DNA from: an uncultured delta proteobacterium
Lineage (GTDB): Bacteria; Desulfobacterota; Desulfomonilia; Desulfomonilales; Desulfomonilaceae
NCBI GenBank assembly: GCA_963789265.1
Contig: CAWBKB010000007.1
Span: 128,001 to 192,000, forward strand
DNA: 64,000 bases
Direction of reading: 5' to 3'
Shown: positions 2,036 through 62,887 of the stretch, in pieces
Position numbering within the stretch: position 1 is the stretch's first letter
Layout: every line of letters begins with the position of its first letter
The notes under the pieces: generated by a model
What the model saw: only the letters and a program-made list of their open reading frames with translations
What the model was told of the DNA's origin: nothing
Databases searched by the model: none
Made by a program: the position numbers and the translations under genes

Positions 2036-2359
2036 ATGATGAAACCTGTTCCAAGGGATGATAACGGCCATCCGCTCCTGGACCGAGGCACGGAACTCTT
2101 CACGACTCGAATTGTAGGGCAAGACACCACAATGTCGCCGTTGGCATTGCCTACTGATTGCAAGGAGGTGCTCTTGCACGTGGAATCAGGGACCGAGATC
2201 CTGCTCGTGAGCGGCACCATAGAGGGCTCCACTGCCGCCAGGCTTACGGATTCCGGTTTCAGTTGGGCGGTTCCCATCACAGCGGCGAGTGGCAGCACTA
2301 TTGCCTATCTGGCTGCCGCGACGGGCACGTGCAACATAAGCATCTTTGCTTGGAGGTGA
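2036..2359 (+). CDS. Small beta-rich putative virion (decoration/fibre) protein
   Basis: 107 aa, AGAGG RBS, lies between MCP and fibre gene, coupled to next ORF. Confidence 0.6.
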   Translation: MMKPVPRDDNGHPLLDRGTELFTTRIVGQDTTMSPLALPTDCKEVLLHVESGTEILLVSGTIEGSTAARLTDSGFSWAVPITAASGSTIAYLAAATGTCNISIFAWR

Positions 2360-2362
2360 AAT

Positions 2363-3658
2363 GTGGGCAACATGGTTATCGTTGCCGGCCGAGGTGGGCA
2401 AAGCGCCCCTACGGGTATTGAGCGAATTACCGTGCCGTCAGGTCGCTTGACCGTCCCTCCTGCTTACATGCAGACTTCCGGCGATGCTGCTGTTCAGTCG
2501 AGCGTGGCAACCGGCGGTATGGCCTTTTTCGGCTGGACTCAAGAAGCGGATTTTGCTCTCTCTTCGTTCAGCGTTTATCTAAACACCGTGACAACGCCGG
2601 GGATCTTTTCGTGGAACCTCTCTGAGGCAGATTCGAACGGTGATCCAATAGTTGGAGACGACGATCCTTACGGTGAAATTACCAGCGGGTCAAGCGCCGG
2701 AGTTTGGTTACGGACGACATTTGTGCCGGTACAGCTACAGCGTGGGAAAAGATACTGTCTTGTTTTCGGCGTGTCAGGATCATGCAACGTTTCTTATTCT
2801 GCTCGCAGGCAAAATCCGGCCATAGGCTCAGGGCATCCCCCGGGCTGTTGGAGCAAAACGAGCACGGACGGGGGAACGACCTGGTCCGATCTTCAGCAGG
2901 ACTCGCGGCCGGCTCTCTTGAATTTAGTGCTCAATTCCACTGCCCATCACTCCCCACAACTTTACTTCGGTCAATATTCCGGCGAGTCCGTGTACCTGCC
3001 GGGAGCGGGCCTACGAACGATTCCTCCGGTAGGAATCCCTTTTGATTGCGAAAGCTTGACTCCAGATACGCTTTACAATGTGTATTTGTGGGACAATACC
3101 GGCACGTTGACACTGGAAGCAGCGACTACGGGTCGCACAATGAGTGAAGGTATCGAGATCAAATCTGCATCACCGGGAGGGCTTTATCTGGGGCTCATCT
3201 ATCCCATCGAGAGACAGTCCGGCTTTCAGGCCCCAATCAAAGTCCCCGATTGGATGGGAGTGTATAACGCCTACAGCCGGCGCACGACCTTCGTGGGCAA
3301 GCCCAATCCCTACTCAGCAACGACGGAGGGTTCAGGATCAGACACCAATTGGGTCGCTATCAGCGATTTCGCGGCCAAGTTTGTGACAGGGGAGCAGTGC
3401 CGGTTGGCGTCGGACTTCGGCCTCGCGTCAGTGAACTCCACAAGACTTACCATCTTGCTGGACGGAGTCGCCCTGCCCCTTGTTCCCATAGTATGGACCA
3501 CTCGCACATCGGATCTTGTCTCTGTTCACGCCGAATTCGTGCTGTCCGAAGGTTGTCACACGGTGTGCCCTGCCGCGTCCGGATGGCCTGCCTTCGATTA
3601 TTCCCTGTACGATCCTATATACGGAAGCAGTTCATTGACAGGGGAGATCATGGCGTAA
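2363..3658 (+). CDS. Putative head/tail fibre or receptor-binding protein
   Basis: 431 aa, G/S/T-rich beta-type sequence; TLYNVYLWDNTGTLTLE...YLG...VYNAYSR segment resembles phage fibre domains; GGAGG RBS. Confidence 0.65.
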   Translation: MGNMVIVAGRGGQSAPTGIERITVPSGRLTVPPAYMQTSGDAAVQSSVATGGMAFFGWTQEADFALSSFSVYLNTVTTPGIFSWNLSEADSNGDPIVGDDDPYGEITSGSSAGVWLRTTFVPVQLQRGKRYCLVFGVSGSCNVSYSARRQNPAIGSGHPPGCWSKTSTDGGTTWSDLQQDSRPALLNLVLNSTAHHSPQLYFGQYSGESVYLPGAGLRTIPPVGIPFDCESLTPDTLYNVYLWDNTGTLTLEAATTGRTMSEGIEIKSASPGGLYLGLIYPIERQSGFQAPIKVPDWMGVYNAYSRRTTFVGKPNPYSATTEGSGSDTNWVAISDFAAKFVTGEQCRLASDFGLASVNSTRLTILLDGVALPLVPIVWTTRTSDLVSVHAEFVLSEGCHTVCPAASGWPAFDYSLYDPIYGSSSLTGEIMA

Positions 3659-3762
3659 AGCGCATCGGCGGTGCTCGAACAGCAAAAGTTGGGCAAAAGA
3701 CGGCACTTTCCTTGGCCTCTGCGACTTCCACGGTGAATGATTTTCGTCCGAGAGGATTGTAA

Positions 3763-4116
3763 ATGTCCCCCAACATGTCCGATCGCGAATTGCTTGAACA
3801 TCTCAGGCTTGACGTGGCCGTCATCAAAGAGAAGCTCCCTCTTCTCGAAAAAATCAGCAATTGCCTGAGCAACCTGAAGAGCAACTGCCGGACCCGCCAC
3901 GAGGATTTGGAGAAGGCACGCCATCGGCGGCACGAAAGACACGAAGTACGATTCTCCGAGCTGGAAACAGCACAAAGAATGGCCCACACCTTTTACGAAG
4001 CTCACGCCTCGTGGACAAATAGGCATAGAGCACTCTTCTGGTCCTCCGTAGTCGCGGTCGCTACCTCGGCGCAGGTGCTGGCGACAGTTATCTTGCACTT
4101 CTTGTCGGTACATTGA
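3763..4116 (+). CDS. Coiled-coil protein with C-terminal TM helix (holin/XhlA-like)
   Basis: 117 aa, GAGG RBS, hydrophobic C-terminus, precedes lysis genes. Confidence 0.55.
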   Translation: MSPNMSDRELLEHLRLDVAVIKEKLPLLEKISNCLSNLKSNCRTRHEDLEKARHRRHERHEVRFSELETAQRMAHTFYEAHASWTNRHRALFWSSVVAVATSAQVLATVILHFLSVH

Positions 4117-4135
4117 GCCACGGAATCAGAACTAA

Positions 4136-4313
4136 CCGCAGAGAACGCTGAGACCGCAGAGTAAAACAAAACTTGTTCAACGTCATGCGCGTCATCAATG
4201 CGAGTAGCAGGGCCGCATTTGCCTGCATTGTCACAGACCGGAATGGGCCGTGCTCCATCAGTTAGACGGGCACGGGAAAATAGACTTCTCCGCGGTCTCT
4301 GCGATCTTCGCGG
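4136..4313. repeat. Host palindromic repeat (ACCGCAGAG..GCAGAG family)
   Basis: Inverted ends CCGCAGAGAACGCTGAGACCGCAGAG / CTCCGCGGTCTCTGCGATCTTCGCGG; relatives at ~14322, ~28826 and 32981-33177. Confidence 0.7.
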
Positions 4314-4472
4314 CGCATCCTCAATGCCCGGTGAACGTCTGCACTAAGTGAGTCAGAACAGCGCCGGGGAACTTCACCATAATAGACCGAAATCTCCTTT
4401 GGCAACGGGAACTTGATCCAGCAACTTGGCTTGGACTTGACCAGGCTAGAATTCGCTTAGTTGGGAGGCGCC

Positions 4473-4772
4473 ATGTTGAGAGAAATCAAACAGTGGATTA
4501 TCGCATCGACCGCCGGGGTTCTCGGAATCGCCGCATTGCTTTTCGTGAGCCCATGGGTACTCCCGGACGATCCGGCCGCTCTCTTGCGCTACGTCATCAT
4601 CCGGGTGATTGCGGTATTGATTGGCATGATTGCCCTGACAGGAGGAATGCTCTTCGTGGATTTCATAACCCCTGACGATTGGATGGATGGAATTGGGAAA
4701 GACCATACAGCTTCAGCTATTCTCATGTCTGCTGTCGTGCTTGTTATTGGCGCAATTCTTTGCTGGACCTGA
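4473..4772 (+). CDS. 3-TM membrane protein, DUF350-like (holin candidate)
   Basis: 99 aa from ATG after GGAGG; three hydrophobic segments; TPDDWMDGIGKDHTASAILMSAVVL resembles DUF350. Confidence 0.6.
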   Translation: MLREIKQWIIASTAGVLGIAALLFVSPWVLPDDPAALLRYVIIRVIAVLIGMIALTGGMLFVDFITPDDWMDGIGKDHTASAILMSAVVLVIGAILCWT

Positions 4773-5211
4773 CGCCTGGGCTCTCACTCCGGCTTACCGG
4801 AGCTCCCTGAAGCGGCAGTTAACATTCATCGTAGCAAAACATCCGAAATATTCCTGGGGCGGGAGTGACAGCCTCGATCTGGGATTGGACTGCTCAGGCT
4901 ACATTTTCCTAGCTTCCAAATGGGCGGGAATTCCCGGGATCACTCGCACCACTGCATTGCGCATGTCGTTGGGATTGGGTGGGTGGCAGGGCAAGGACAT
5001 CGACCGCTCCCAGGCTGATGAATGTGACCTCTCATTTTGGACGTTCAAAGAAGAGAGGCTAAACGGCCACGTTGGAGCCTTCCTTTGCGGGCCTGACAAT
5101 GCAATGCAGGTCACTCACGCCAGCCTGAGAAGAGGTATCGTGCTCGATCGGCTAGATGGGCTGCTCCTGCAAAAACTAACCAAGGTTCGAAGACTAACCA
5201 TAGGAGACTGA
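4687..5211 (+). CDS. NlpC/P60 cell-wall peptidase with signal peptide (endolysin candidate)
   Basis: YSWGG...GLDCSG, GHVG and THAS give the Cys-His-His catalytic signature; N-terminal hydrophobic signal ending DAWA. Confidence 0.85.
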   Translation: MELGKTIQLQLFSCLLSCLLLAQFFAGPDAWALTPAYRSSLKRQLTFIVAKHPKYSWGGSDSLDLGLDCSGYIFLASKWAGIPGITRTTALRMSLGLGGWQGKDIDRSQADECDLSFWTFKEERLNGHVGAFLCGPDNAMQVTHASLRRGIVLDRLDGLLLQKLTKVRRLTIGD

Positions 5212-5213
5212 AA

Positions 5214-5411
5214 ATGGATTCAACAAAGGTATGGTGGACTTCAAAAACAATATGGACGAATGTCATTGCCTTGATAGGGTCAGTTGTTATCGCTGTAGGC
5301 TTTGATCCCGGACGTTGGGCTGAGATTTCGACTGTTTCACTATCTGTGGTGAACCTGATTCTCAGGCTTTACACAAAGGAGCCCATTTCTCTCGATTCGG
5401 GAGGGAATTGA
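5214..5411 (+). CDS. Small 2-TM holin-like protein
   Basis: 65 aa, KVWWTSKTIWTN...NLILRLYTKEP pattern typical of phage holin-like proteins. Confidence 0.7.
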   Translation: MDSTKVWWTSKTIWTNVIALIGSVVIAVGFDPGRWAEISTVSLSVVNLILRLYTKEPISLDSGGN

Positions 5412-51803: not shown

Positions 51804-51888
51804 CAGCGGAATCAAGTTTGCGGTAGGTCGGGCCGTGCCCCATGCAAACTGGTGCAAATCGTGACGCGGACCACCCGAGGCGACCCCG

Positions 51889-52479: not shown

Positions 52480-52551
52480 TGCAGTTCCGATGCCACCGTA
52501 CTGAATCGAGCTTGCGGTAGGTCGGGCCGTGCCCGAAGTCCCGCGTTCGCG

Positions 52552-52731: not shown

Positions 52732-53057
52732 CGTTCGCGGGAGCGGCCACGGGCCGCCCTACGGGCCCCCAAAAATCCCCATCTGAGAACCCTCTCAAAA
52801 GGGGAGCTGTTTTGTCCTGGTTACCAGGCTCTGCCTGATAATCCATAGTGCCGGGCTACGTCCAGTAGCCCCGGATCTCGCCAAAGACCGTGAGACTCGT
52901 ACGGCCGAATTCCAGAGTGCACAGATAGAGCCCCCAGAGAAGCATTCCCAGGCAGAGCCTGAGAACGAGACGCAGGCAACCGGAGTACGGGATGTAGTTC
53001 TTCCAGAAGAACGGCCGGGGTGATCATTGCCCAAGATTATGGCTATCTTCTGATCGG

Positions 53058-54032
53058 TCACTTCTTGAGCTTGTATTTAGCAGCTTTTAGAGCTTGCCAT
53101 TTTAAGTTCGGATGTTGGCTGATCCGTTGTACCATTTCTTCGTCCTGTGTCAAAAGCAACGGCTCTATTTCTCCGTAATCCAAAAGACGGTCCAAAAACT
53201 CATTCTCAGCATCCGTAAAAGGTAGTAGTCGAGCGACAGACTCACGGGTTTCAAGAACAAGCTGCCGAGCCCATTCCACAGCATTGCCTACCATCTTTAA
53301 ATTGTCACGACGTAGGACGGGAAGGAGTTCATCGTGCAAGTCCTTGTGCGTGAAATCGATATCTGTTGCTTGGACCCGTCGCCAATCTTTCTCTTTGGCC
53401 ATAGCGCCATATAAAACAAAAGATAATCGTAGCTTTTCTTGCTCCAGACTGCCTTTCGTGAACAGAAAATGAGCATCAAACAAGTCCCTACTGGCCTTTC
53501 GAGATAGAAGCGCTTTGAGTTTTCCTCCTGCAAGCTCGTGAATGTCCAAAACCGGGAACTCGATCTGCGGCTGAGTTCCAATAGGAACAGATTTTCTCTT
53601 GCCAAAACCCCAAAGCGGAAGTCGATACATGAAAATTAAATCAATCTTCAGGTTACCTCCCAAACCAAGCGCGCTCATATAACGTACGTGAAAGGTACAG
53701 CCTGCATGGCTCTCTTGCACATGACTTACTGTCAATCCCTCCCTTTTACAGACAGCCGCCATGGCCTTCATCATATCAGGACGTTCTGCATTCGTTTTCT
53801 TGAGGTCTATAGCTCCTACATAATTCAGATCAATATCTACGGATAGCCGAGGTTGATTGAAAATGAAGAGATTCAGGGCGGTTCCTCCTTTGAGTACGAC
53901 CCTTTCTTTTAGAAAGGGATGCTTACTGATTCCAGTCAACAAAGCTAACAGGTAGAATACCTTTTCCAGCATTTCCGGTCGGAATCCGGAAGAAGCGGCT
54001 TCAGCCAATAGGGTTTCTTTAGAGATTATCAC
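53058..54032 (-). CDS. abiEii: AbiEii/AbiGii nucleotidyltransferase toxin (type IV TA)
   Basis: LKGGTALN, RLSVDIDL, K..ALLSR..SRDLFD; GTGA overlap with antitoxin. Confidence 0.93.
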   Translation of the reverse strand: MIISKETLLAEAASSGFRPEMLEKVFYLLALLTGISKHPFLKERVVLKGGTALNLFIFNQPRLSVDIDLNYVGAIDLKKTNAERPDMMKAMAAVCKREGLTVSHVQESHAGCTFHVRYMSALGLGGNLKIDLIFMYRLPLWGFGKRKSVPIGTQPQIEFPVLDIHELAGGKLKALLSRKASRDLFDAHFLFTKGSLEQEKLRLSFVLYGAMAKEKDWRRVQATDIDFTHKDLHDELLPVLRRDNLKMVGNAVEWARQLVLETRESVARLLPFTDAENEFLDRLLDYGEIEPLLLTQDEEMVQRISQHPNLKWQALKAAKYKLKK

Positions 54033-54853
54033 GAAAACTCCTCCCAGGCTTGCCTCAGAATGTCTTCGGGTACCACCAGATTCCATTTTCTGATCAACTG
54101 TTTCTTGGAGCGTTTCCTCTCCTCGCTATTCCGAACCATATACGTGCGTTGTTTGGGGCGGTGCTTACGCAGCCGTCGTAGGTGCTTCTCTTCGACCATC
54201 AACTCTTGACGGTGAGTTTCCAGATAAAAACCCACCTTAGCTATCGTAGTTGAGTTCTCCAACAATAACGCATAGTCCACTACCTCATCTATGTCGAAGA
54301 ATTCGACGGATTCCAAAGACCTCCAGATCTCTTCCCAACCGCCACCAAGGGACGGGCGATCTAAAACGTCTACCAGCGTGCGTTCTAGGGAGGTACTTCG
54401 TATCCACATGCCGGATCTTTCCACCTGATCGACTCCAAATAACTCTTGACCTTTGTCCCTAAGAATTCTTGGAAAGAGTACCCCTCGGAATTCATTTCCA
54501 CGGAAATTCAGAGGGTGAGTCTTTGCCCGATTCCCGGTTAAGTAAACGAAGCGCTCATGTATGGAGTGAGCCTTGCCATGCAAATCGAGGGCTGTGTGAT
54601 AGGCCAAGACCGCATCTTCAGCCATTTTTGACGCCAGGATGTAGCCGTCCACAGGGGCATAGTCCGGTTCAATACCGGGAGGAACTGACGAATAGAGTCC
54701 TCTGCGGATTCTGAGTATGTGGCCGGAATTGACATGATAGTCGATCAGGGCTTTTCGGGTCTTGACATTTGTGGACCCTCGGGAGTTCAGGAATTCAGTT
54801 AGCTCACTGTAAGTGAAGACTGGGTGTTTCGCAAAAAAAGACCGTGTGTCCAT
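54029..54853 (-). CDS. abiEi: AbiEi antitoxin / transcriptional regulator
   Basis: RIRRGLY, AYHTALDLHG, TSLERTLVDVLDRP. Confidence 0.92.
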   Translation of the reverse strand: MDTRSFFAKHPVFTYSELTEFLNSRGSTNVKTRKALIDYHVNSGHILRIRRGLYSSVPPGIEPDYAPVDGYILASKMAEDAVLAYHTALDLHGKAHSIHERFVYLTGNRAKTHPLNFRGNEFRGVLFPRILRDKGQELFGVDQVERSGMWIRSTSLERTLVDVLDRPSLGGGWEEIWRSLESVEFFDIDEVVDYALLLENSTTIAKVGFYLETHRQELMVEEKHLRRLRKHRPKQRTYMVRNSEERKRSKKQLIRKWNLVVPEDILRQAWEEFS

Positions 54854-54864
54854 GATCTACTACC

Positions 54865-55124
54865 AAAGTGACATTATACAGCGTTAGACCTAATAAGATT
54901 AGGACTTCCAGTGCAACATGTCAACGTCAGCGCGTGGTATATATACTATGCCCTCGTATCCCTAAAGTAACATCATACAGCGTTAGACCTAATAAGATTA
55001 GGACTTCCAGTGCAAAAAAGTAAGCTAATGATATAGTATATATACTATATCATTTGTCAGTCTTTTTTCCTTCTTGACTTGCCCGGTAACCTTGTCGTAT
55101 ATATACGACAAGGTTACCGGGCAA
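54865..55124. promoter_or_regulatory. Divergent promoter/operator region: two 52-bp direct repeats (54865-54916, 54964-55015) and palindromes centred on GTATATATAC
   Basis: Repeats differ at 2 positions; perfect palindromes 55027-55054 (28 bp) and 55079-55124 (46 bp); TTGACT 55074-55079 and TATATA 55098-55103 could be -35/-10. Confidence 0.75.
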
Positions 55125-55126
55125 CG

Positions 55127-56005
55127 ATGAAACAACGAAATACCCTGCAAAGGGCCAAACCCGAGATAGCAGCTTTTTTTGAATCCCGCCATGTAAAGAT
55201 TTTTTCACGCTCTGAACTCCGTCAGATTTTGAATCTCTACAGGGAGGAATGGGGCCTTCGAGCTTATGTGACTTTCCCCAAATTTAGCGCCTTTCTGATC
55301 GAAGAAATCGCTTTACAAATCGAAACCTGCTCTTTTTCTTCGCGACCTTACACAAGATTTACAGTTGGAGAAGTCCCTCTGTACAAACTTCTCCTGTCGC
55401 TGATCCCTGATTCTTATCTCTCGCATTTCACGGCTCTGGCTCTACATCAATTTACTGAGAAAATCCCCGATAAAATCTACTTGAATTTTCCACAGGAAAG
55501 GAAACTTCGAAAAAACCCTTCGCTAGATCAGAATTTGATAGATCGGGCCTTTCGGAGACCGGTAAGGGTTGCCAAGAATTCCGCCGCATTTCGTGGACAC
55601 GAGGTTCTGCTTCTGAACAGTATGGGGCACGGAGACCTGGGAATCATCGAGTCCAAGGGACCAGACGATTCGAAGATACGAATTACAGACAGAGAGAGGA
55701 CCCTCATAGATATCACGGTGAGACCGGTTTATTCGGGTGGAATTTCAAACGTGTTGGCGGCTTACAGGAAAGCCAAGGGGAAGGTATCGATTCGTAAACT
55801 GGCAGAAACGCTGAAGGCGTTAGATTTTGCTTATCCTTATAACCAGTCAATTGGATTCTGCCTTGAAAAATCGGGTTACATCGATTCCGAAATAGCCCTT
55901 CTCCGTGAATTCCCCATCCGATACGATTTCTATTTAGATTATCAGATGGCCGAAACCGACTATTCGAAAGACTGGCGACTGTACTTTCCAAAGGGTTTGG
56001 AATAG
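55127..56005 (+). CDS. AbiEi-like antitoxin-domain protein with no adjacent toxin
   Basis: YLSHFTALALH, ITDRERTLIDITVRP.YSGG, WRLYFP. Confidence 0.8.
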   Translation: MKQRNTLQRAKPEIAAFFESRHVKIFSRSELRQILNLYREEWGLRAYVTFPKFSAFLIEEIALQIETCSFSSRPYTRFTVGEVPLYKLLLSLIPDSYLSHFTALALHQFTEKIPDKIYLNFPQERKLRKNPSLDQNLIDRAFRRPVRVAKNSAAFRGHEVLLLNSMGHGDLGIIESKGPDDSKIRITDRERTLIDITVRPVYSGGISNVLAAYRKAKGKVSIRKLAETLKALDFAYPYNQSIGFCLEKSGYIDSEIALLREFPIRYDFYLDYQMAETDYSKDWRLYFPKGLE

Positions 56006-56068
56006 GCCTTGTCTTTATTGAGTAGCACTCCGAGAACAAAAGGAGGCACGACGCGAAGTCGCGAAAGC

Positions 56069-56481
56069 ATGGCCAAGCGCAGGAAGGTCTGGATGTATTG
56101 CCCGCCCAAACCGCGTAAGCCCAAGGTGCCTGATGGGGTGAAGCTTGAACTCTCGTCAAAAGCCCTCCAGCTTATCGATGACTATCTTAGGCCGCTGCAC
56201 ATCAAGCCTCCGCCTAAGAATCCCGAGTTCAACTATGCCACCGAACTCTTCACTCGTTGGTACCAAAGCTACTTCTACTTCTGTACCACGCGCGATCGCC
56301 GGGGCCAAATGCCATGTCCCCCACATTCGAGCATCGCTTCGCGAGGATGGGGTACGAAGGAGAAGGTAAGTTCAACCTCTCATATATTCGTTACACAGGC
56401 CAATGGTGGGTAATCCATTCAGGTCTCACCATGGATGAATGCCTCACGGCTATAAGAGATGAGCCGCACTTCATTCCATAG
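56069..56481 (+). CDS. Conserved hypothetical protein (DUF3024-like); frameshift ~56290
   Basis: RWYQSYFYFC joins PGPNA..PTFE.RFARM.Y...LSY.RYTGQW. Confidence 0.6.
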
Positions 56482-56870
56482 CGGCGGTAGGTCGGGCCGT
56501 GCCCGACGAAAACCGGCGGCAAGATCCCGGGGGTTCGTGCTGTAGGTGAGTTCCGGATTTGTTCGGTTATGTGACCAATGCAACTTGTCTCGCGAACGCC
56601 GGACTTGGACCCTTTTCTCCAGCAATGCGGTTGGCTTCACGCAGGAAGTCCTACTCGCTCAGACGCTTTCCAAGGTAATAGAATCAGGTAGGCTGGAGAC
56701 TGTCAATTTCTTCCTCGTTGCTCAATCAGGACATATTTGACCCCAACGATTCGTTATTGCCGGTTTTTGCGTGACCGAAGCTAAGAAACGTTAGATATGT
56801 GCTATTATGGTTTATCAAGTAGACTGAAAAGCCTTGAAATATCCGAGCCGGCAATTGAAGGGACGGATGC

Positions 56871-57578
56871 ATGAAATCTAAGCTCATGTCCATGGTTGAC
56901 GTTGATAAGGCAAAGCAATTCTTAGGGGACGTTGCTGTTCTAGCAAACTTGCCTGACGGGGCACTGAGAGGATTGGAAGAGGTGGTGCCCAAAGTTGCCG
57001 AAACCCACTCAGACCGGGATACACTTCAATTGCAGGAACAGACCGCCCAGCGCTTGGCCTTAGAACTGCCTAAGCTGAAGAGCGCTCTTGATGCCTCGCA
57101 ATTCTTCTTTTACCGGTTTAGTACGGAAGAGGAAGGCACTGAAGATTCTGTCTCGGACATTGTCCAAGATCTAGTGGAACTCAAAATCGTGCTTCCGAAT
57201 CGAATGGATTCGTTAACCAAGTATTTGACATCCCTAAGAAAATACGCCATCGATTTCGGTAGAATAAGAGTCAAAGCCCGAAGCACAACGATCAAGTGTC
57301 TTCCGGTCCTGAGCGGCATTGAGGTGGCCATAGATTATAGACCCGTCATGAAGCATCAATTTCAGCCAAGTGACAAAATTGACGATTATGAGCCAGAGTG
57401 CCTCGGCTTAGTCGCCGTGCCCGTGGTCAAACTAGAGTTGAAATGGGGACAAACTGACAACCATTTCATGTTTCAGACGGACAAAGCGACAATCCAAACA
57501 GTGATTGATTTCTTGAAGGGCGCTCAAAAAGATATGGAAGCAGCGGAACGGTTTCTTAACTTGGATGTTCTTGGATAG
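56871..57578 (+). CDS. COMMD-like protein (helical N-domain + COMM-like C-domain)
   Basis: LPVLSGIEVAIDYR...VPVVKLELKWGQTDNHFMFQTDKATIQTVIDFLKGAQKDM resembles the COMM domain three-strand + helix pattern. Confidence 0.6.
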   Translation: MKSKLMSMVDVDKAKQFLGDVAVLANLPDGALRGLEEVVPKVAETHSDRDTLQLQEQTAQRLALELPKLKSALDASQFFFYRFSTEEEGTEDSVSDIVQDLVELKIVLPNRMDSLTKYLTSLRKYAIDFGRIRVKARSTTIKCLPVLSGIEVAIDYRPVMKHQFQPSDKIDDYEPECLGLVAVPVVKLELKWGQTDNHFMFQTDKATIQTVIDFLKGAQKDMEAAERFLNLDVLG

Positions 57579-57593
57579 CGGCAGGGCACAGAT

Positions 57594-58052
57594 ATGGCTA
57601 AGATTATCCCTCTACGAGACCAACAAGAAAACACAAGGAGCTTCGGACCATTCTTGAGCGCGCCAAGAACCATGGAAGAGGGTGCAACGAAGGAGCGGGG
57701 CATTGATTGGCTTGACTTGCGAGATTTCGTGCCCGGCGAAAGTGAGCGAGCAGAAGTCGCCACCAAATATGGGCATCTCGACTGGACCGGCTATGTGCGT
57801 CCAATGGAGCCAGCGGACCTATTTGTTCCTGGTTACAGGTCTAAGGGAGCGAGATCAAGGAAGACAATCCGGCTGGTCTCTTTAGCTTTGAGTTCATCTA
57901 TTTCTAGCCTGATGTTTGCTGGCGGCCTGTTGTCTTATAGCATTGGGAATCTGCCCTCCCCTCTTTTCTTTTTTTCAATCGGCTTTCCGGCGCTGGGGGT
58001 GGCCATCGGGTCTTTCATTGCGTTGATGGAACAGGGATACCATGACGAATAA
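57594..58052 (+). CDS. Membrane protein with two C-terminal TM helices
   Basis: 152 aa, 15 nt after the COMMD-like gene; hydrophobic C-terminal hairpin. Confidence 0.65.
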   Translation: MAKIIPLRDQQENTRSFGPFLSAPRTMEEGATKERGIDWLDLRDFVPGESERAEVATKYGHLDWTGYVRPMEPADLFVPGYRSKGARSRKTIRLVSLALSSSISSLMFAGGLLSYSIGNLPSPLFFFSIGFPALGVAIGSFIALMEQGYHDE

Positions 58053-58278
58053 AGGCCAGACAACCTCGACCCGGTGGTTCAAGGATCTCTTACAGCACCT
58101 TCCACTGAAAAAAATAACGAGGGCACAAGCCGGCAACTACGTAATGGATGGCATAGGTGCCCTGTGCTTTATTGCCTTCATGTTCACGAAGCCCCCACCA
58201 ACCCATGCCCTCATTGCTCTCGTCTCTATCCTGTTGACTTTTGTCTGGTGTCATAACGTATCGCGCCCGAGACGTTAG
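58042..58278 (+). CDS. Small 2-TM membrane protein
   Basis: 78 aa, overlaps previous stop; two hydrophobic segments. Confidence 0.6.
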   Translation: MTNKGQTTSTRWFKDLLQHLPLKKITRAQAGNYVMDGIGALCFIAFMFTKPPPTHALIALVSILLTFVWCHNVSRPRR

Positions 58279-58443: not shown

Positions 58444-59556
58444 GTGCCTGATAATAAAAACCAGCACTATGTGCCTCGATTTTATTTGAAAAATTTTTCA
58501 GATCACGGCGGGCGCACCATTAACCTATTTAATATTAAGAGAAGGCTCTCTGTGAGAAATGCACCTTTGCGACAACAATGTTGTGAACCATATTTTTATG
58601 GCAAGACTCCTGAAATAGAAAAAATATTTCAAGAACTTGAAAACATGGTGTCCCGAACAATCAATAACATATTGTCGACCTCCACAATTCCTCCTCGACA
58701 TTCAAGGGAATATGCTGAACTTCTCATCTATTTGATTGTGCAACGCCAGAGGACGAAGACTGCTGCCGAGGAATGTGACGAAGTATCTGACCAAATGTGT
58801 AAGATTATGCTTCGAAAAGATCCCGAATTGGATGCAGAGACCCTGGCTCACCTCAATGACGTGAGAATAGTTACTACGAATCCAACGGCAATGCCCATGC
58901 TCATTGCCGTAAGAGAATTCCCTTTAGCGCTCGATTTGGAGGCAAAAGTCATCTCTAACCGATCAAATGAGCCGTTTATCACTAGTGACAATCCCGTCGT
59001 GTTTTACAACCAATATATGGAAAACTTCCAAGGAGCTAGTTGTACGGGGTTGGCGTCGCTGGGTCTCCAGATGTTCCTGCCTTTATCCGGTAGAATTATG
59101 CTGCACTTTTACGATCCTAGCGTATATAGAATCAGGACGAACGACTCGAACGTCTGTGAAATTAGCAGTGATGCGGAGTCGCTTAAATTCAATCAGTTGC
59201 AATGGTTGAACGCTCGTGAAAACGTCTACTACTCTGATCAGTCAACACCAATTTCTATATCTTCTCAGGCGCAACTATTCCTGAGGAATCACTCACACAG
59301 CATTCCGATAGTCAGGGAATATCCTATAGGCGGGAACGAAACGCGGTTCATGATTCATAAGTCGGATCAACGAACAAGGCTTCGGCCTAGTTTCGCCAGC
59401 ATCAGAAAGTCAAAGAAGAAATTGCGCCATTCGCTGCAATGGCCCGCCGTTCGTAATAAGAATGTTGTGGAAGCACTTCAGCATTTCGGGAAAACGAATG
59501 AAGGCCGGGCTTGGAGCGGAAATGATTTCTTGAACTTTTTGCATCGGGGGAGATAG
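58444..59556 (+). CDS. DUF4238-domain protein
   Basis: NQHYVPRFYLKNF, IEKIFQELE, FITSDNPV, FLPLS. Confidence 0.88.
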   Translation: MPDNKNQHYVPRFYLKNFSDHGGRTINLFNIKRRLSVRNAPLRQQCCEPYFYGKTPEIEKIFQELENMVSRTINNILSTSTIPPRHSREYAELLIYLIVQRQRTKTAAEECDEVSDQMCKIMLRKDPELDAETLAHLNDVRIVTTNPTAMPMLIAVREFPLALDLEAKVISNRSNEPFITSDNPVVFYNQYMENFQGASCTGLASLGLQMFLPLSGRIMLHFYDPSVYRIRTNDSNVCEISSDAESLKFNQLQWLNARENVYYSDQSTPISISSQAQLFLRNHSHSIPIVREYPIGGNETRFMIHKSDQRTRLRPSFASIRKSKKKLRHSLQWPAVRNKNVVEALQHFGKTNEGRAWSGNDFLNFLHRGR

Positions 59557-59649
59557 TAAGTCAAGCCCGCACCTGACGCTCCCGGCGGTCACAGGCTGCC
59601 CTACGCGCCTGCGATCTTGACAGGAGGCACATTAAAGACCTCATAATTC

Positions 59650-59875
59650 ATGGCCTTTCACATCGTCCCTTGGACGGACCCGAACGTTCTTTTCGATCCC
59701 CGCCGACCTCTTCGCCGTGGCAACCTCAAGCTCACATCTACTATTGTAGATTCATCCAATCTTGAGGCGTGGTTCCGAAGTACCTGGCCAAACGGAGGGC
59801 TGTGTCTGCTGTGATACTGCTTTTCTCCGTGATAATGCGGTTGATCCTGCCGGCGTTCGGGGAAACCATACTTAT
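59650..59875 (-). pseudogene. higA: 5'-truncated higA antitoxin relic
   Basis: RINRIITEKSSITADTALRLARYFGTTPQDWMNLQ then stops; homologous to 62552-62887. Confidence 0.75.
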
Positions 59876-59928
59876 TTCGGTCCTGCTTTCCACGCCCTGC
59901 CTGGCAATCCATAGCGCCGGGCTCAACC

Positions 59929-60564
59929 TTAGCTTAATAACCCCACAAGCACCGCGGTCACAACAATTTGTAGCGCAACCACGGCCGTAATCCAATGCGG
60001 CCTGTGTGCCAAGAATCTTTCCGGGCCGGGCACTGCTTTCAAAAAGAAAGAGGCATTAGCCAGATTAAAGAGTAGGATTGTCCAAAAGAGTGCCCTGCCG
60101 CCTCCGTATATCCAGCAGCAGAAAATCCCGTAGATTGTCTCGAATACGAAGGCAACAGCGGGCTTCTCATAGAGCCCCAGACCGATCTTTCTTTTGTCCA
60201 GAAATGGCGCGATGGCAATGTCACGGGCATGACTGATCAGGTCAAGCACAAGGTGAGAACATATCCCCAGCGAGACGGCTGTTGCTATATTGATTTCCTT
60301 GAAGCCCAAAGCAATAATTATCCATGCGCCGGCTGCCAAAACAACAGTGGAGGCAATAGAGTGAGAAAAAGGCATAAACTCAAGATGTACGTCGCTGACC
60401 GAGGTCACGTTGTTTTCAGTTGTTGTCTTTTCCACACCCAAAAAGTTTAACGCGACCCAGAGGATTTCTATAAGTTGAACTGACACCAATATTACGGCCA
60501 TCGGTACATCGGGATATATCTTTTTGATAATCAGACCGGTGGCTGCGTGATTTATAGCGAACAT
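59929..60564 (-). CDS. Membrane protein, metal-dependent hydrolase-like
   Basis: NH...PFSHS...SHLVLDLISH; several TM segments. Confidence 0.8.
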   Translation of the reverse strand: MFAINHAATGLIIKKIYPDVPMAVILVSVQLIEILWVALNFLGVEKTTTENNVTSVSDVHLEFMPFSHSIASTVVLAAGAWIIIALGFKEINIATAVSLGICSHLVLDLISHARDIAIAPFLDKRKIGLGLYEKPAVAFVFETIYGIFCCWIYGGGRALFWTILLFNLANASFFLKAVPGPERFLAHRPHWITAVVALQIVVTAVLVGLLS

Positions 60565-60877
60565 CAGCTCGCCCTCTGCATAGGCTTCATTGCGACAAAT
60601 TCCCTTGACTCAATGAGCACGTACGTTTCCTAATTTAAGGATGCGGTCGTGGCGATCTTGGTTCAGCTTCTTATTATATGACTCGAAAGGGAGGGCTAGA
60701 TCCGCGAAGTTGCTAAGGTAGTTGAAAGGGATTGAGGTTGGACTAGGTCCATATCGGTAGGTCGGGCCTTGCCCGACGCAAACCGGCGGCCACGGGCCAC
60801 CTTACAGGTCAGCAGAGAATTAGCGATGGTGTCCCCGGAATTTGACATTAATTCTTCGAACTACCCATAAACACAGC

Positions 60878-61290: not shown

Positions 61291-61854
61291 CTAGTCCACC
61301 AACCCTGTTCTGTCGAAAACAGAAAGAATTATAGTAAGAATGCCTGCCGGATCGTATTTTGCCCCCAGTTTGGGCACCCAGTATCTTCCGTGTGCCAGCC
61401 AATGTCGATAATTCAGAGTTCCTTTGAAAAGTCCGACGTATGGCTTCGACTCTGGCACCTTTTCTGCCCATATATCAAGTATGTCATCTTCGAGAATTAT
61501 ATTGAGTCTGCTATTGTTGCGCCGTTTATATATACTTTGAAACTCTCGGCTCACATCGTCCTTTTTCTTATGGTATACGCGTTGCAAAAAATCTACGCGG
61601 AAAGCCGCTTCAGCGGACGCAATCAAAAATAAGCATGCTTGCTGATCTGTCTCCTCAAAATTTTGTTTAAAGAATTCATCAATTTCTCGAAGGTCCATCG
61701 CGAAAAATTTCGGGTCGCTACCGGTTAGACCGAGTAACCGATTGTGCTTCGTCTGTTCATACATTTGGACCATGCTATCTCGCATATTTTCGTAATATTG
61801 CCAAACGTCGGCCACCGTGTGCTGGTCGGGATTGATCGAAGCCTTCTTCGTCAC
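61291..61854 (-). CDS. Putative HEPN-domain RNase
   Basis: SAEAAFR helix and YRHWLAHG (RxxxxH). Confidence 0.65.
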   Translation of the reverse strand: MTKKASINPDQHTVADVWQYYENMRDSMVQMYEQTKHNRLLGLTGSDPKFFAMDLREIDEFFKQNFEETDQQACLFLIASAEAAFRVDFLQRVYHKKKDDVSREFQSIYKRRNNSRLNIILEDDILDIWAEKVPESKPYVGLFKGTLNYRHWLAHGRYWVPKLGAKYDPAGILTIILSVFDRTGLVD

Positions 61855-62303
61855 TCCATTACCTCGCTCAGGATGTCTTGGAAAGACTGCTCATCAAAAG
61901 GCAACGTCTTGATTTTAGGCGTTCTTTCGACAACAAACCATTGATCGTTGTTGAATATGATCGATCTTGCGGCTCTATGACCCTTTAGATCTATTCGTCC
62001 TTGGGCGCCAATGATTAAGGTCCCCTTAGGGTAGAAAATAACTTCTTGATTTCCGATGTAGATTTTCAAGATGTCGGCCTCATAGGAACCAATCGGTTCT
62101 TCTTCTAACCTGGCGCTTTTTCTTTCGAACCGTACCACTTTCTCTTTGACCAGGGGCTCCAGCCAGGCAACAACTTGGTTATAAAGTTGGTCAATATTTT
62201 TCAGCCATGTGTTTTTCTTGAGTTCCCAGTCTACCTCTGCCTCAGGCTTGCTCTCCTTGGCTTTGGCCCTGAGAAATACTTGCAAGTCGTTGGTACCGTT
62301 CAT
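61851..62303 (-). CDS. Hypothetical protein coupled to the HEPN gene
   Basis: AAGGAG RBS; GTGA overlap; PKGTLIIGAQGRIDL motif. Confidence 0.75.
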   Translation of the reverse strand: MNGTNDLQVFLRAKAKESKPEAEVDWELKKNTWLKNIDQLYNQVVAWLEPLVKEKVVRFERKSARLEEEPIGSYEADILKIYIGNQEVIFYPKGTLIIGAQGRIDLKGHRAARSIIFNNDQWFVVERTPKIKTLPFDEQSFQDILSEVME

Positions 62304-62551
62304 CACAAACTCTCCTTTGTCCGAATGGTGCCGCGATCGATTCAAGCCCGAGAACATTTAATTCTGCGGACACCAACGTCAATTTGCTCCATTCCTTTAT
62401 GTCGGTCCAGGTTTTTCTTGGAATTTTCGAATCTAGCCGTTTCTCAAGCGGGCGCAGTCTTGGCTAGTCGCCATGCTGCCTCCTATACTCCAACCATGGT
62501 TCGCCCAGAATACGGCAATTCATGCAAAATTCAGATCTTTCCGGTCGAATG

Positions 62552-62887
62552 TTAATACTGCTGCAATCCAAGAGCTTTCACCTCATCTCTTGGACGGATC
62601 TGAACGTTCTTTTCGATCTCAGCCGAATTTTTCGCCTTGTCAACCTCAAGCTCATATCTGGATTGTAGATTCATCTAAACTTGAGGCGTGGTTCCGAAAT
62701 AGAGTGCCGAACGAAGAGCAGTATCCGCGGTAATATTGCTTTTCTCGGTCACAATGCGGTTGATCCTCCCGGGATCGACATCGAGTGCTTCGGCGAGCTT
62801 ATTCTGACTCAAACCCAAAGGTTCCATGAAAAGCTCCAGGAGAACTCGTCCCGGATGGATAGGCGGTCTTACGATTTCATCAGACAC
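62552..62887 (-). pseudogene. higA: higA antitoxin with an internal amber stop (62675-62677)
   Basis: PIHPGRVL.E.F.EPLGLSQ..LA; TAG where the other copy has TGG (W); reading continues MNLQSRYELEV. Confidence 0.8.

What the first reader, a model, noticed from the sequence alone, without database searches (positions are those of the whole stretch)
56871..58278. Bacterial COMMD-like gene in an operon with two small membrane proteins inside a defence island
Seen: a 235-aa ORF followed, 15 nt later and then by overlap, by two 2-TM ORFs, lying between an AbiE system and DUF4238. Known: eukaryotic COMMD proteins have a helical N-domain and a C-terminal COMM domain (LP.L....W.VD, then two more strands and a long helix) that domain-swaps into rings. 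By eye, VPVVKLELKWGQTDNHFMFQTDKATIQTVIDFLKGAQKDM parallels the COMMD1 C-terminus as recalled (VAIIELELGKYGQESEFLCLEFDEVKVNQILKTL), and the N-half is helical. Inference: a ring-forming COMMD-like scaffold or sensor coupled to TM effectors could be an undescribed anti-phage or membrane-remodelling system. I recall prokaryotic COMMD-like proteins being reported, but not with this operon or a defined function.
Basis: partly seen in the sequence, partly recalled or inferred. Interest (0 to 1): 0.88.

Follow-up and report, generated by a model that had tools for sequence, protein, structure and literature searches.

The report
COMMD-like gene heading a swappable three-gene cassette
A bacterial relative of the ring-forming COMMD proteins of eukaryotic cells sits first in a tight three-gene cassette whose other two genes (here two small membrane proteins) are exchanged for other gene pairs in relatives, giving a first testable clue to what these bacterial proteins do.

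Summary
The three ORFs lie at 56871-58278 (235, 152 and 78 aa; 15-nt gap, 11-nt overlap), between an AbiE system and a DUF4238 gene.

The 235-aa protein is a COMMD-like protein:
- It has 312 homologues, and their profile hits solved COMM-domain proteins.
- AlphaFold2 with the alignment gives pLDDT 94.9.
- Both the HN and the COMM domain match solved COMMD structures.

Prokaryotic COMMD-like proteins were described in 2026, with function unknown.

What I did not find in print is the operon:
- In 14 of 14 loci the COMMD-like gene is followed at once by a co-directional frame.
- The following genes differ between loci: a two-TM-hairpin pair (window, L018), a helical protein plus DUF7689, DUF5678 plus a retropepsin-like protease, and an unknown pair.
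- Gene-2 proteins of two partner types share a cross-validated N-terminal motif. The window keeps only a degenerate copy.
- The DUF7689 pair also occurs without a COMMD-like gene.

My reading is a TAC-like, effector-swapping conflict cassette with the ring as hub. This is inferred, not shown.

The parts
56871..57578 (+). Gene 1: COMMD-like protein, 235 aa. It has no Pfam, NCBIfam, PADLOC or PHROG hit of its own.
   Evidence: ORF. 312 homologues. Family profile against solved structures. AF2 pLDDT 94.9. Foldseek and VIA matches to COMMD and COMMD-like structures.
56913..57293 (+). HN-like helical N-terminal domain (residues about 15-141).
57306..57554 (+). COMM domain (residues about 146-228): three beta-strands (146-160, 177-192, 195-202) and a long helix (205-228).
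57594..58052 (+). Gene 2: 152-aa protein with a soluble N-terminal part of about 90 residues and a C-terminal 2-TM hairpin. Proposed adaptor.
   Evidence: ORF. Homologous to L018 gene 2 (BLASTP 3e-11). 5 other homologues of 151-179 aa. Hydropathy.
57702..57743 (+). Degenerate copy of the gene-2 N-terminal motif (residues 37-50, core F45-x-P47-x-x-S50).
   Evidence: In the six-sequence alignment P47 and S50 are invariant against the '..Y.PASS..' of type-C relatives. The motif HMMs did not detect it.
57882..57932 (+). Gene 2, hydrophobic segment 1 (residues 97-113).
   Evidence: 17-residue Kyte-Doolittle mean 1.59. The region is conserved in homologues.
57978..58028 (+). Gene 2, hydrophobic segment 2 (residues 129-145). 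Includes the conserved 'G.PA.GVA' stretch.
   Evidence: 17-residue Kyte-Doolittle mean 2.04. Invariant columns.
58042..58278 (+). Gene 3: 78-aa 2-TM hairpin protein (conserved 'T.AQA' before TM1 and 'PP' in the loop). Proposed membrane effector.
   Evidence: ORF. L018 gene 3 BLASTP 6e-16. 6 other homologues of 78-80 aa. 21 invariant columns in 7 sequences. Hydrophobic peaks at residues 33-49 (1.71) and 54-70 (2.07).

Best explanation
Shown. Gene 1 encodes a diverged member of the prokaryotic COMMD-like family (HN domain plus COMM domain). It heads a tightly packed three-gene cassette. In relatives, positions 2 and 3 hold different gene pairs. Gene-2 proteins of two partner types have unrelated C-terminal halves but share an N-terminal motif of about 30 residues. 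At least one partner pair (helical protein plus DUF7689) also exists on its own without a COMMD-like gene. The cassette is rare and patchy.

Inferred. Solved relatives form 8- or 10-subunit rings, so I take the COMMD-like protein to do the same and to act as a hub. The hub would bind the N-terminal motif of the gene-2 protein. The C-terminal half of gene 2 pairs with, and probably restrains, the gene-3 product. In this window gene 2 would tether the cytosolic ring to the inner membrane through its 2-TM hairpin, and the 78-aa gene-3 hairpin would be the output, a small membrane-damaging effector.

[quoted passage not shown] There an oligomeric chaperone recognises a short extension on the antitoxin, the TA pairs are interchangeable, and a trigger such as a phage protein that occupies the hub frees the toxin. 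I therefore read the operon as a TA-like or abortive-infection-like conflict cassette. I do not read it as a housekeeping trafficking device.
For: COMMD-like identity:
- The profile of 137 homologues hits 9za1_A 'COMM domain-containing protein' at E 1.3e-6, human COMMD2 at 5.8e-4, 9za2_A at 2e-3 and COMMD8 at 0.011.
- 9 of 137 members hit PF07258 and 2 of 137 hit COMM_HN.
- AF2 gives pLDDT 94.9 and pTM 0.83.
- Foldseek gives 18 hits at E<=1e-3, and the ten printed are all COMMD or COMMD-like chains, led by the octameric bacterial 9q6a.

Cassette:
- In 14 of 14 independent loci a co-directional frame abuts or overlaps the end of the COMMD-like gene. Gaps run from -32 to +15 nt in the 11 loci where a start could be assigned.
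- Partner types found: TM pair (window, L018); 'HWFWAL' protein plus DUF7689 (L005, L010, L016, L023; gene 2 only in L013; DUF7689 Pfam E 1e-37 to 4e-30); DUF5678 (2.8e-8) plus gag-asp_proteas (2.3e-6) in L011; an unknown 225-238 aa plus 136-142 aa pair (L004, L006, L014).

Shared motif:
- An HMM built from type A finds type-C proteins at E 4.4e-6 and 1.5e-3, ahead of all 1910 decoy frames (best decoy 4.4).
- An HMM built from type C finds type-A proteins at 3.9e-4, 0.023 and 0.046 (best decoy 0.84).

Autonomous partner module: 8 of 12 DUF7689 loci have the 'HWFWAL' partner upstream, and only 2 of those 8 have a COMMD-like gene.

Patchiness: 0 of 400 other genomes of the window's phylum; 3 of 401 and 3 of 401 in Planctomycetota samples.

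Context: the window lies in a low-G+C island with AbiE and HTH genes. L016 lies next to MazE and an AAA_21 ATPase, and L021 next to a DNA methylase.

TAC precedent: abstracts of PMC5105189, PMC6377645, 10.1101/2024.02.24.581848 and PMC11618068.
Against: - No binding, ring formation, toxicity or phage phenotype was tested, and the complex predictor was unavailable.
- The motif HMMs do not detect the window's own gene 2, nor any type-B or type-D gene 2. The window's copy rests on one MAFFT alignment.
- None of the three window proteins, and no partner protein, has a significant PADLOC or PHROG hit. The best is a weak PDC-M32B match at E 1.6e-3 for a type-A gene 3.
- No viral look-alike was found (0 BFVD hits at E<=1e-3; no relative in viral contigs).
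- 4 of 8 relatives with readable flanks lie among housekeeping genes only.
- The tree of 15 COMMD-like sequences is poorly resolved (7 of 12 inner branches open). A single origin for each partner type is not excluded, so 'swapping' rests on identities and not on a supported tree.
- All context loci were found with a query from one subgroup and are biased to Planctomycetota-like sequences. The contexts of most of the 312 homologues are unseen.
- The profile search also gave one non-COMMD hit of similar E-value (9l08_A cytochrome c555 trimer, 2.3e-4, no stretch passing alone).
Confidence: 0.5

Rival explanations
1. Housekeeping membrane scaffold. The COMMD-like ring is anchored to the inner membrane by the two TM proteins and organises or sorts membrane proteins or lipids. 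This would be a bacterial forerunner of the membrane-trafficking role of Commander.
For: Eukaryotic COMMD proteins act at endosomal membranes (PMC13392464 introduction; PMC6089597 abstract in the listing). In the window both partners are membrane hairpins, and the soluble N-terminus of gene 2 could reach a cytosolic ring.
Against: The gene was not found in 400 other genomes of the same phylum and is present in under 1% of the Planctomycetota sampled. In most relatives the partners are soluble proteins, including a retropepsin-like protease and DUF7689. In the window it lies in a low-G+C island with Abi and TA-type genes.
Confidence: 0.15
2. Genes 2 and 3 are a self-sufficient two-gene (TA-like) module. 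The COMMD-like gene is only a frequent neighbour or a regulator that does not bind them, so the cassette is not one machine.
For: The DUF7689 pair stands without a COMMD-like gene in 6 of 8 loci. No interaction could be predicted or measured here. Liu et al. report no predicted complexes between COMMD-like proteins and their neighbours in Myxococcota, Chlamydia and Haloarcula (sections 10 and 11).
Against: Packing is tight in 14 of 14 loci even though the COMMD-like sequences have diverged to 16-30% identity. Gene-2 proteins with unrelated C-terminal halves share an N-terminal motif and always lie next to a COMMD-like gene. In L011 the DUF5678 domain sits at residues 132-179 of a 193-aa protein, whereas the Pfam model is 49 positions long, so there is a long added N-terminal part.
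Confidence: 0.2
3. Accessory of a secretion or injection machine, as suggested for Myxococcota COMMD-like genes that cluster with T6SS-like components.
For: Section 10 of PMC13392464 reports DUF2169, VgrG, PAAR and OB-fold genes within +/-10 kb of 47-63% of 55 Myxococcota COMMD-like genes.
Against: No such gene appears in the flanks of the 8 loci examined or in the window around the operon. L005 has secretin and T2SSE genes several kb away, among housekeeping genes, and not adjacent to the cassette.
Confidence: 0.04

Closest known systems
Prokaryotic COMMD-like proteins (Liu et al., Nat Commun 2026, PMC13392464; solved examples PDB 9q6a/9q6c, octameric protein from a Flavobacteriaceae bacterium)
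   Different: Only 14-18% identical to the solved bacterial protein, and the window protein itself passes no Pfam model. The paper leaves function open, reports no predicted partner, and its main text has no 'operon', 'toxin', 'defence' or 'defense'. Here there is a conserved three-gene cassette with variable partners. I could not tell whether this subfamily is among their 250 bacterial entries. The table I could read holds only accessions and taxon ids, and two supplementary files were too large to read.
Eukaryotic COMMD1-10 in the Commander/CCC complex (PDB 8f2r, 8p0w, 8esd)
   Different: The eukaryotic ring is a heterodecamer of ten paralogues inside a 16-subunit trafficking complex. Here there is one gene, no CCDC22/93-like partner, and partners that vary between loci. 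The docking parallel is an inference that was not tested.
Tripartite toxin-antitoxin-chaperone (TAC) systems with a SecB-like chaperone, including CmdTAC (abstracts of PMC5105189, PMC6377645, 10.1101/2024.02.24.581848, PMC11618068)
   Same: Works-like comparison only. Both are three small genes: an oligomeric hub protein, a middle protein carrying a short recognition element, and an output toxin. The TA pairs are interchangeable. TACs give anti-phage defence.
   Different: No sequence or fold relation, since the hub here is COMMD-like and not SecB-like. The recognition element is N-terminal here, whereas the ChAD element of TACs is C-terminal. Gene order differs. Toxicity and antitoxin roles are unproven here.
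Small 2-TM membrane effectors of abortive-infection-type defence systems (general class, recalled; no specific family matched)
   Same: Gene 3 is a 78-aa 2-TM hairpin in an island with AbiE, and it occupies the position where relatives carry enzymes.
   Different: No PADLOC, Pfam or PHROG family matches gene 2 or gene 3. Membrane damage is an assumption.

Membership tests
Prokaryotic COMMD-like / COMMD family | N-terminal alpha-helical HN domain with COMMD topology | tested here: met
Prokaryotic COMMD-like / COMMD family | C-terminal COMM domain: three-stranded antiparallel sheet plus an extended helix | tested here: met
Prokaryotic COMMD-like / COMMD family | The protein's own sequence passes Pfam PF07258 COMM_domain | tested here: not met
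   0 families for the window protein at E<=0.1. Only 9 of 137 family members hit PF07258, best E 4.8e-6. Liu et al. state that such proteins are under 20% identical to eukaryotic COMMDs and are missed by sequence methods (section 6), so this is not a defining feature of 'COMMD-like'.
Prokaryotic COMMD-like / COMMD family | COMM-domain dimers that assemble into an 8- or 10-subunit ring | not testable with these tools
Only a monomer model was made.
Known anti-phage defence systems (PADLOC-DB v2) | Match to a model of a known or candidate defence protein | tested here: not met
   0 families for the three window proteins. Among partner proteins only weak hits: PDC-M32B at 1.6e-3, SngA at 0.023, PDC-M08B at 0.011.
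Anti-phage defence system (general) | Recurrent placement next to known defence genes | tested here: inconclusive
   Window: AbiE, a second AbiEi-like gene and HTH antitoxin-like genes. Of 8 relatives with flanks, 2 have conflict-type neighbours (L016, L021), 4 have housekeeping genes only (L004, L005, L006, L020), and 2 say little (L022, L014). The sample is small and biased.
Anti-phage defence system (general) | Protects cells against phage | not testable with these tools
   This needs an experiment.
TAC-like tripartite toxin-antitoxin-hub module (works-like, not a homology claim) | The middle protein carries a short conserved element absent from free-standing versions, next to an oligomeric hub gene | tested here: inconclusive
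   The motif is shared by type-A and type-C gene-2 proteins. It was not detected in types B and D or in the window's own gene 2. DUF5678 sits at 132-179 of a 193-aa protein in L011. Free-standing 'HWFWAL' partners have reading frames with 34-105 residues ahead of the domain, so their N-terminal extensions could not be shown to be missing.
TAC-like tripartite toxin-antitoxin-hub module (works-like, not a homology claim) | Gene 3 is toxic and gene 2 neutralises it | not testable with these tools
   This needs an experiment.

The most novel reading that the evidence does not exclude
COMMD-like rings are the hubs of an undescribed class of tripartite conflict systems (abortive-infection or TA-like) with swappable effectors. 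A short N-terminal docking motif on the middle protein ties interchangeable outputs to the ring: membrane hairpins, DUF7689, a retropepsin-like protease. If so, holding the linear motifs of partner proteins would be the ancestral job of the COMMD ring, which eukaryotes later reused when CCDC22 and CCDC93 wrapped around the Commander ring.
Probability: 0.3. Interest if true: 0.9.

Novelty: new variant of a known kind. Interest (0 to 1): 0.72.

Why it matters
The 2026 paper that described prokaryotic COMMD-like proteins and solved their rings states that their function is unclear, and it found no predicted partner among neighbouring genes. This subfamily gives a concrete handle on that question. 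It offers a compact operon, a candidate docking motif, and a set of interchangeable outputs, two of which have recognisable biochemistry (an aspartyl protease and a membrane hairpin). That turns 'what do bacterial COMMD rings do?' into simple experiments: co-purification, toxicity and rescue tests, and phage panels. If the ring proves to be a hub that holds linear motifs of adaptors, this would also bear on how the Commander complex arose. If the cassette is a defence or TA system, it would add a new hub type alongside SecB-like chaperones.

Tried and rejected
- Word-indexed protein search with gene 1 found only the protein itself.
- Single-sequence AF2 was useless (pLDDT 34.1).
- Single-sequence PDB search gave only noise (Gtr2 at E 0.19).
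A five-sequence alignment, A4, was accepted. As a result all loci from those scans come from one subgroup.
- tblastn against plasmids: no match.
- Viral contigs: 212 pattern matches, none a relative.
- BFVD fold search: 0 hits at E<=1e-3.
- PHROGs: 0 families for 12 proteins.
- RNA evidence: no RNA holder was listed, and read laying was not used.
- PDB sequence searches and an Atlas search for the type-A and type-B third genes gave nothing usable.
- Gene-3 profile (A9) over 401 Planctomycetota genomes: 0 matches. The positive control on the window's own genome scored 4e-36. So a free-standing TM pair was not found in those genomes.
- Motif HMMs did not detect the window's gene 2 or the type B and D partners.
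- The tree could not resolve whether partner types arose once or several times.
- Earlier-findings look-up by sequence found nothing.
- Literature: no paper in the held library combined COMMD or COMM-domain terms with phage-defence or TA terms in a relevant way. DUF7689 is in no paper, and DUF5678 appears in one unrelated paper.
- I considered the 20-mer repeat upstream of the operon as a possible cassette boundary (attC-like). I rejected that because it is dispersed genome-wide (32 copies).
Full report
**Observation**

The three + strand ORFs are present as described: 56871-57578 (235 aa), 57594-58052 (152 aa) and 58042-58278 (78 aa). They are separated by a 15-nt gap and an 11-nt overlap. 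Genes 2 and 3 each have two hydrophobic peaks, consistent with 2-TM hairpins.

The neighbours are also as described:
- Upstream lies a complete AbiEi/AbiEii pair at 53058-54853(-) (PADLOC E 1.9e-108 and 3.9e-99).
- A second AbiEi-like gene lies at 55079-56005(+).
- Downstream lies a DUF4238 gene at 58444-59556 (Pfam 8e-43).
- G+C drops to 0.44-0.50 across about 53-63 kb, against 0.55-0.60 before it.

**What gene 1 is**

The protein has no hit of its own in Pfam, NCBIfam, PADLOC or PHROGs. The word-indexed search found only the protein itself.

The exhaustive HMMER scan found 312 homologues at E<=1e-3 and 97 at E<=1e-10. Almost all are 225-255 aa, match over the full length, and are 20-33% identical. 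I aligned 137 of the 150 listed (A1). I left out 13 length outliers. The other 162 were not listed by the tool.

The evidence that this family is COMMD-like:
It also gives one unrelated hit of similar E-value, a cytochrome c555 trimer, with no stretch passing on its own.
- 9 of 137 members match Pfam COMM_domain on their own, and 2 match COMM_HN.
- With A1 as its alignment, AlphaFold2 gives pLDDT 94.9 and pTM 0.83. The model has helices over residues 15-141, then strands 146-160, 177-192 and 195-202, then a helix at 205-228. Without the alignment the model was useless.
- Foldseek against the PDB gives 18 hits at E<=1e-3. The ten printed are all COMMD or COMMD-like chains, led by the octameric bacterial COMMD-like protein 9q6a.

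**What is already known**

Liu et al. [quoted passage not shown] I read the abstract and sections 6, 10, 11 and 12, and ran term searches on the main text and on four supplementary files. Two supplementary files were too large to read.

The paper states that function is unclear. Myxococcota genes cluster with T6SS-like genes, and no complex with neighbours was predicted in the three clades the authors examined. The main text contains no 'operon', 'toxin', 'defence' or 'defense'.

I could not determine whether this subfamily is in their list.

**The operon in relatives**

The gene is rare:
- It was found in 0 of 400 other genomes sampled from the window's own phylum.
- It was found in 3 of 401 genomes in each of two Planctomycetota samples.

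I obtained DNA for 13 further independent loci:
- L004-L006 from genomes;
- L010, L011 and L019 from genome scans;
- L012-L016 and L018 from metagenomes;
- L023, found through its DUF7689 gene.

L017 duplicates L005 and was dropped.

In 14 of 14 loci, the window included, a co-directional frame abuts or overlaps the end of the COMMD-like gene. Gaps run from -32 to +15 nt in the 11 loci where a start could be assigned. The downstream genes differ:

| Type | Loci | Gene 2 | Gene 3 |
|---|---|---|---|
| C | window, L018 | about 152 aa with a C-terminal 2-TM hairpin | 78-aa 2-TM hairpin |
| B | L005, L010, L016, L023; gene 2 only in L013, where the contig ends | about 175 aa with a conserved 'HWFWAL' helical domain | DUF7689 (Pfam E 1e-37 to 4e-30) |
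| D | L011 | carries DUF5678 (2.8e-8) | retropepsin-like aspartyl protease (gag-asp_proteas 2.3e-6) |
| A | L004, L006, L014; start of gene 2 only in L015 | 225-238 aa, no family | 136-142 aa, no family |

Two loci do not fit the table cleanly. L019 looks similar to type D by eye but has no family hit. L012 is cut off and shows only the N-terminal motif of gene 2.

The window's type is conserved. Window and L018 gene 2 give BLASTP 3e-11, and gene 3 gives 6e-16, at 32-34% identity. Their COMMD-like proteins are only 22% identical.

The large protein database holds 5 more gene-2 and 6 more gene-3 homologues. Their sources and longest-contig lengths pair up in 5 of 5 cases: 2913, 2180, 17685, 976 and 1870. 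The COMMD-like homologue P0011 also comes from a single 2180-bp contig of the same source. That makes a third full triad likely, but I did not see the DNA.

**A shared element in gene 2**

Type-A and type-C gene-2 proteins have unrelated C-terminal halves. They share an N-terminal stretch of roughly 'Y..(hydrophobic)(hydrophobic)TDD..Y.P.S..D/E'. I cross-validated it:
- An HMM built from five type-A segments finds type-C proteins at E 4.4e-6 and 1.5e-3 (two more at about 0.4). All are ahead of 1910 decoy frames from the window and loci (best decoy 4.4).
- An HMM built from five type-C segments finds type-A proteins at 3.9e-4, 0.023 and 0.046 (best decoy 0.84).

Against this, the HMMs do not detect the window's own gene 2, nor the type-B and type-D proteins. 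In a six-sequence alignment the window's 'DFVPGES' lines up with 'GYVPASS', and P47 and S50 are invariant. The window therefore has at best a degenerate copy.

**Partner pairs as modules**

A scan for DUF7689 in 351 Planctomycetota genomes found 12 loci in 9 genomes. Of those, 8 have the 'HWFWAL' partner directly upstream, and only 2 of the 8 have a COMMD-like gene before it. In the others the preceding gene is something else. One carries an Xre/MbcA/ParS antitoxin domain.

So genes 2-3 can be a self-contained pair that is sometimes coupled to a COMMD-like gene. I could not show this for the TM pair. Its profile matched 0 of 401 Planctomycetota genomes, and the positive control worked.

The identity matrix suggests that partner types are not tied to the COMMD-like phylogeny. 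L016 and L013 (type B) are 41-43% identical to type-A proteins, but only 21-30% identical to the other type-B proteins. The tree, however, is poorly resolved, with 7 of 12 inner branches open, and it does not exclude one origin per type.

**Context**

The window's cassette is in an island with Abi and TA-type genes. Among 8 relatives with readable flanks:
- L016 lies next to MazE and an AAA_21 ATPase.
- L021 lies near a TatD-like gene and a DNA methylase.
- L004, L005, L006 and L020 are solitary insertions among housekeeping genes (MacB/FtsX, IleRS, QueG, RibBA, hexokinase, glycosyltransferases).
- L022 and L014 say little.

Defence-island association is therefore not established. A small, rare cassette dropped between housekeeping genes is what TA-like modules also look like.

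I found no phage link: no relatives in viral contigs, no BFVD fold match and no PHROG hit.

**Mechanism (inferred)**

The ring-forming COMMD-like protein acts as a hub that binds the N-terminal element of the gene-2 protein. The C-terminal half of gene 2 pairs with the gene-3 output.

In the window, gene 2 would anchor the ring at the membrane, and the 78-aa hairpin would be a membrane-damaging effector released or activated by a trigger.

The nearest working analogy is the toxin-antitoxin-chaperone module. There a SecB-like oligomer recognises a short addiction element on the antitoxin, TA pairs are interchangeable, and phage proteins can trigger the system. I saw only the abstracts of PMC5105189, PMC6377645, 10.1101/2024.02.24.581848 and PMC11618068. 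There is no homology to TAC components.

Nothing about binding, toxicity or phage resistance was tested. The complex predictor was unavailable and no RNA data were listed.

**Novelty and verdict**

The protein is a new, diverged member of a family described in 2026. I did not find the three-gene cassette with interchangeable partners, or the shared gene-2 motif, in the papers I could search. That library is limited to open PubMed Central papers and bioRxiv.

I did not follow it up.

I rate this as a new variant of a known kind, with interest 0.72.

Noticed in passing
window 51822-51841, 52516-52535, 56486-56505, 60756-60775: A G+C-rich 20-36 nt repeat (core GGTAGGTCGGGCCGTGCCCG) occurs four times, all on the + strand, within 9 kb around the island. 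One copy lies just after the DUF3024 remnant, about 365 nt upstream of the operon. Genome-wide there are 32 copies at up to 2 mismatches on several contigs, and none for the reversed control pattern, so it is a dispersed REP-like element. A related inverted form (D5) lies at 52743, 59585 and 60786.
   Followed up: partly
window 59645-59853 and 62565-62772: Two direct repeats of about 210 nt, 82% identical and 2.9 kb apart. Each covers the 3' part of a short HTH (HigA-like, HTH_3) ORF on the - strand (59741-59995 and 62675-62887). These look like duplicated antitoxin-like genes or remnants bracketing a block of unknown genes.
   Followed up: no
window 56009-56481: DUF3024 (Pfam 1.4e-9) matches only the 74-aa ORF at 56257-56481, from profile position 44 onward. 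An overlapping 134-aa ORF in another frame (56009-56413) starts right after the second AbiEi-like gene. This looks like a frameshifted DUF3024 gene at the place where an AbiEii partner would be expected.
   Followed up: no
window 54865-55124: Between the two divergent AbiEi genes there is a 52-nt direct repeat (54865 and 54964, 96% identical) and a perfect 46-nt palindrome (55079-55124) at the start of the second AbiEi-like ORF. These are possible operator sites.
   Followed up: no
window 61291-62357 (-): Two overlapping genes with no family hit (187 and 168 aa). By eye, the 168-aa protein resembles the 207-aa frame that precedes the DUF7689 pair in L032 (204-824). I did not test this.
   Followed up: no
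L023-L034 (Planctomycetota genomes): DUF7689 (PF24738, uncharacterised) forms a recurrent two-gene module with an upstream domain of about 92 residues carrying a 'HWFWAL..ITG' motif (8 of 12 loci). One genome (G547) has four copies. In L025 the gene before the pair carries an Xre/MbcA/ParS antitoxin C-terminal domain.
   Followed up: partly
L020 (G552:C73) 2239-5227: The type-D cassette (COMMD-like, DUF5678 protein, retropepsin-like protease) lies between a 266-aa glycosyltransferase-2 ORF and a short 109-aa glycosyltransferase-2 ORF on the same strand. It may have been inserted into or beside a GT2 gene.
   Followed up: no
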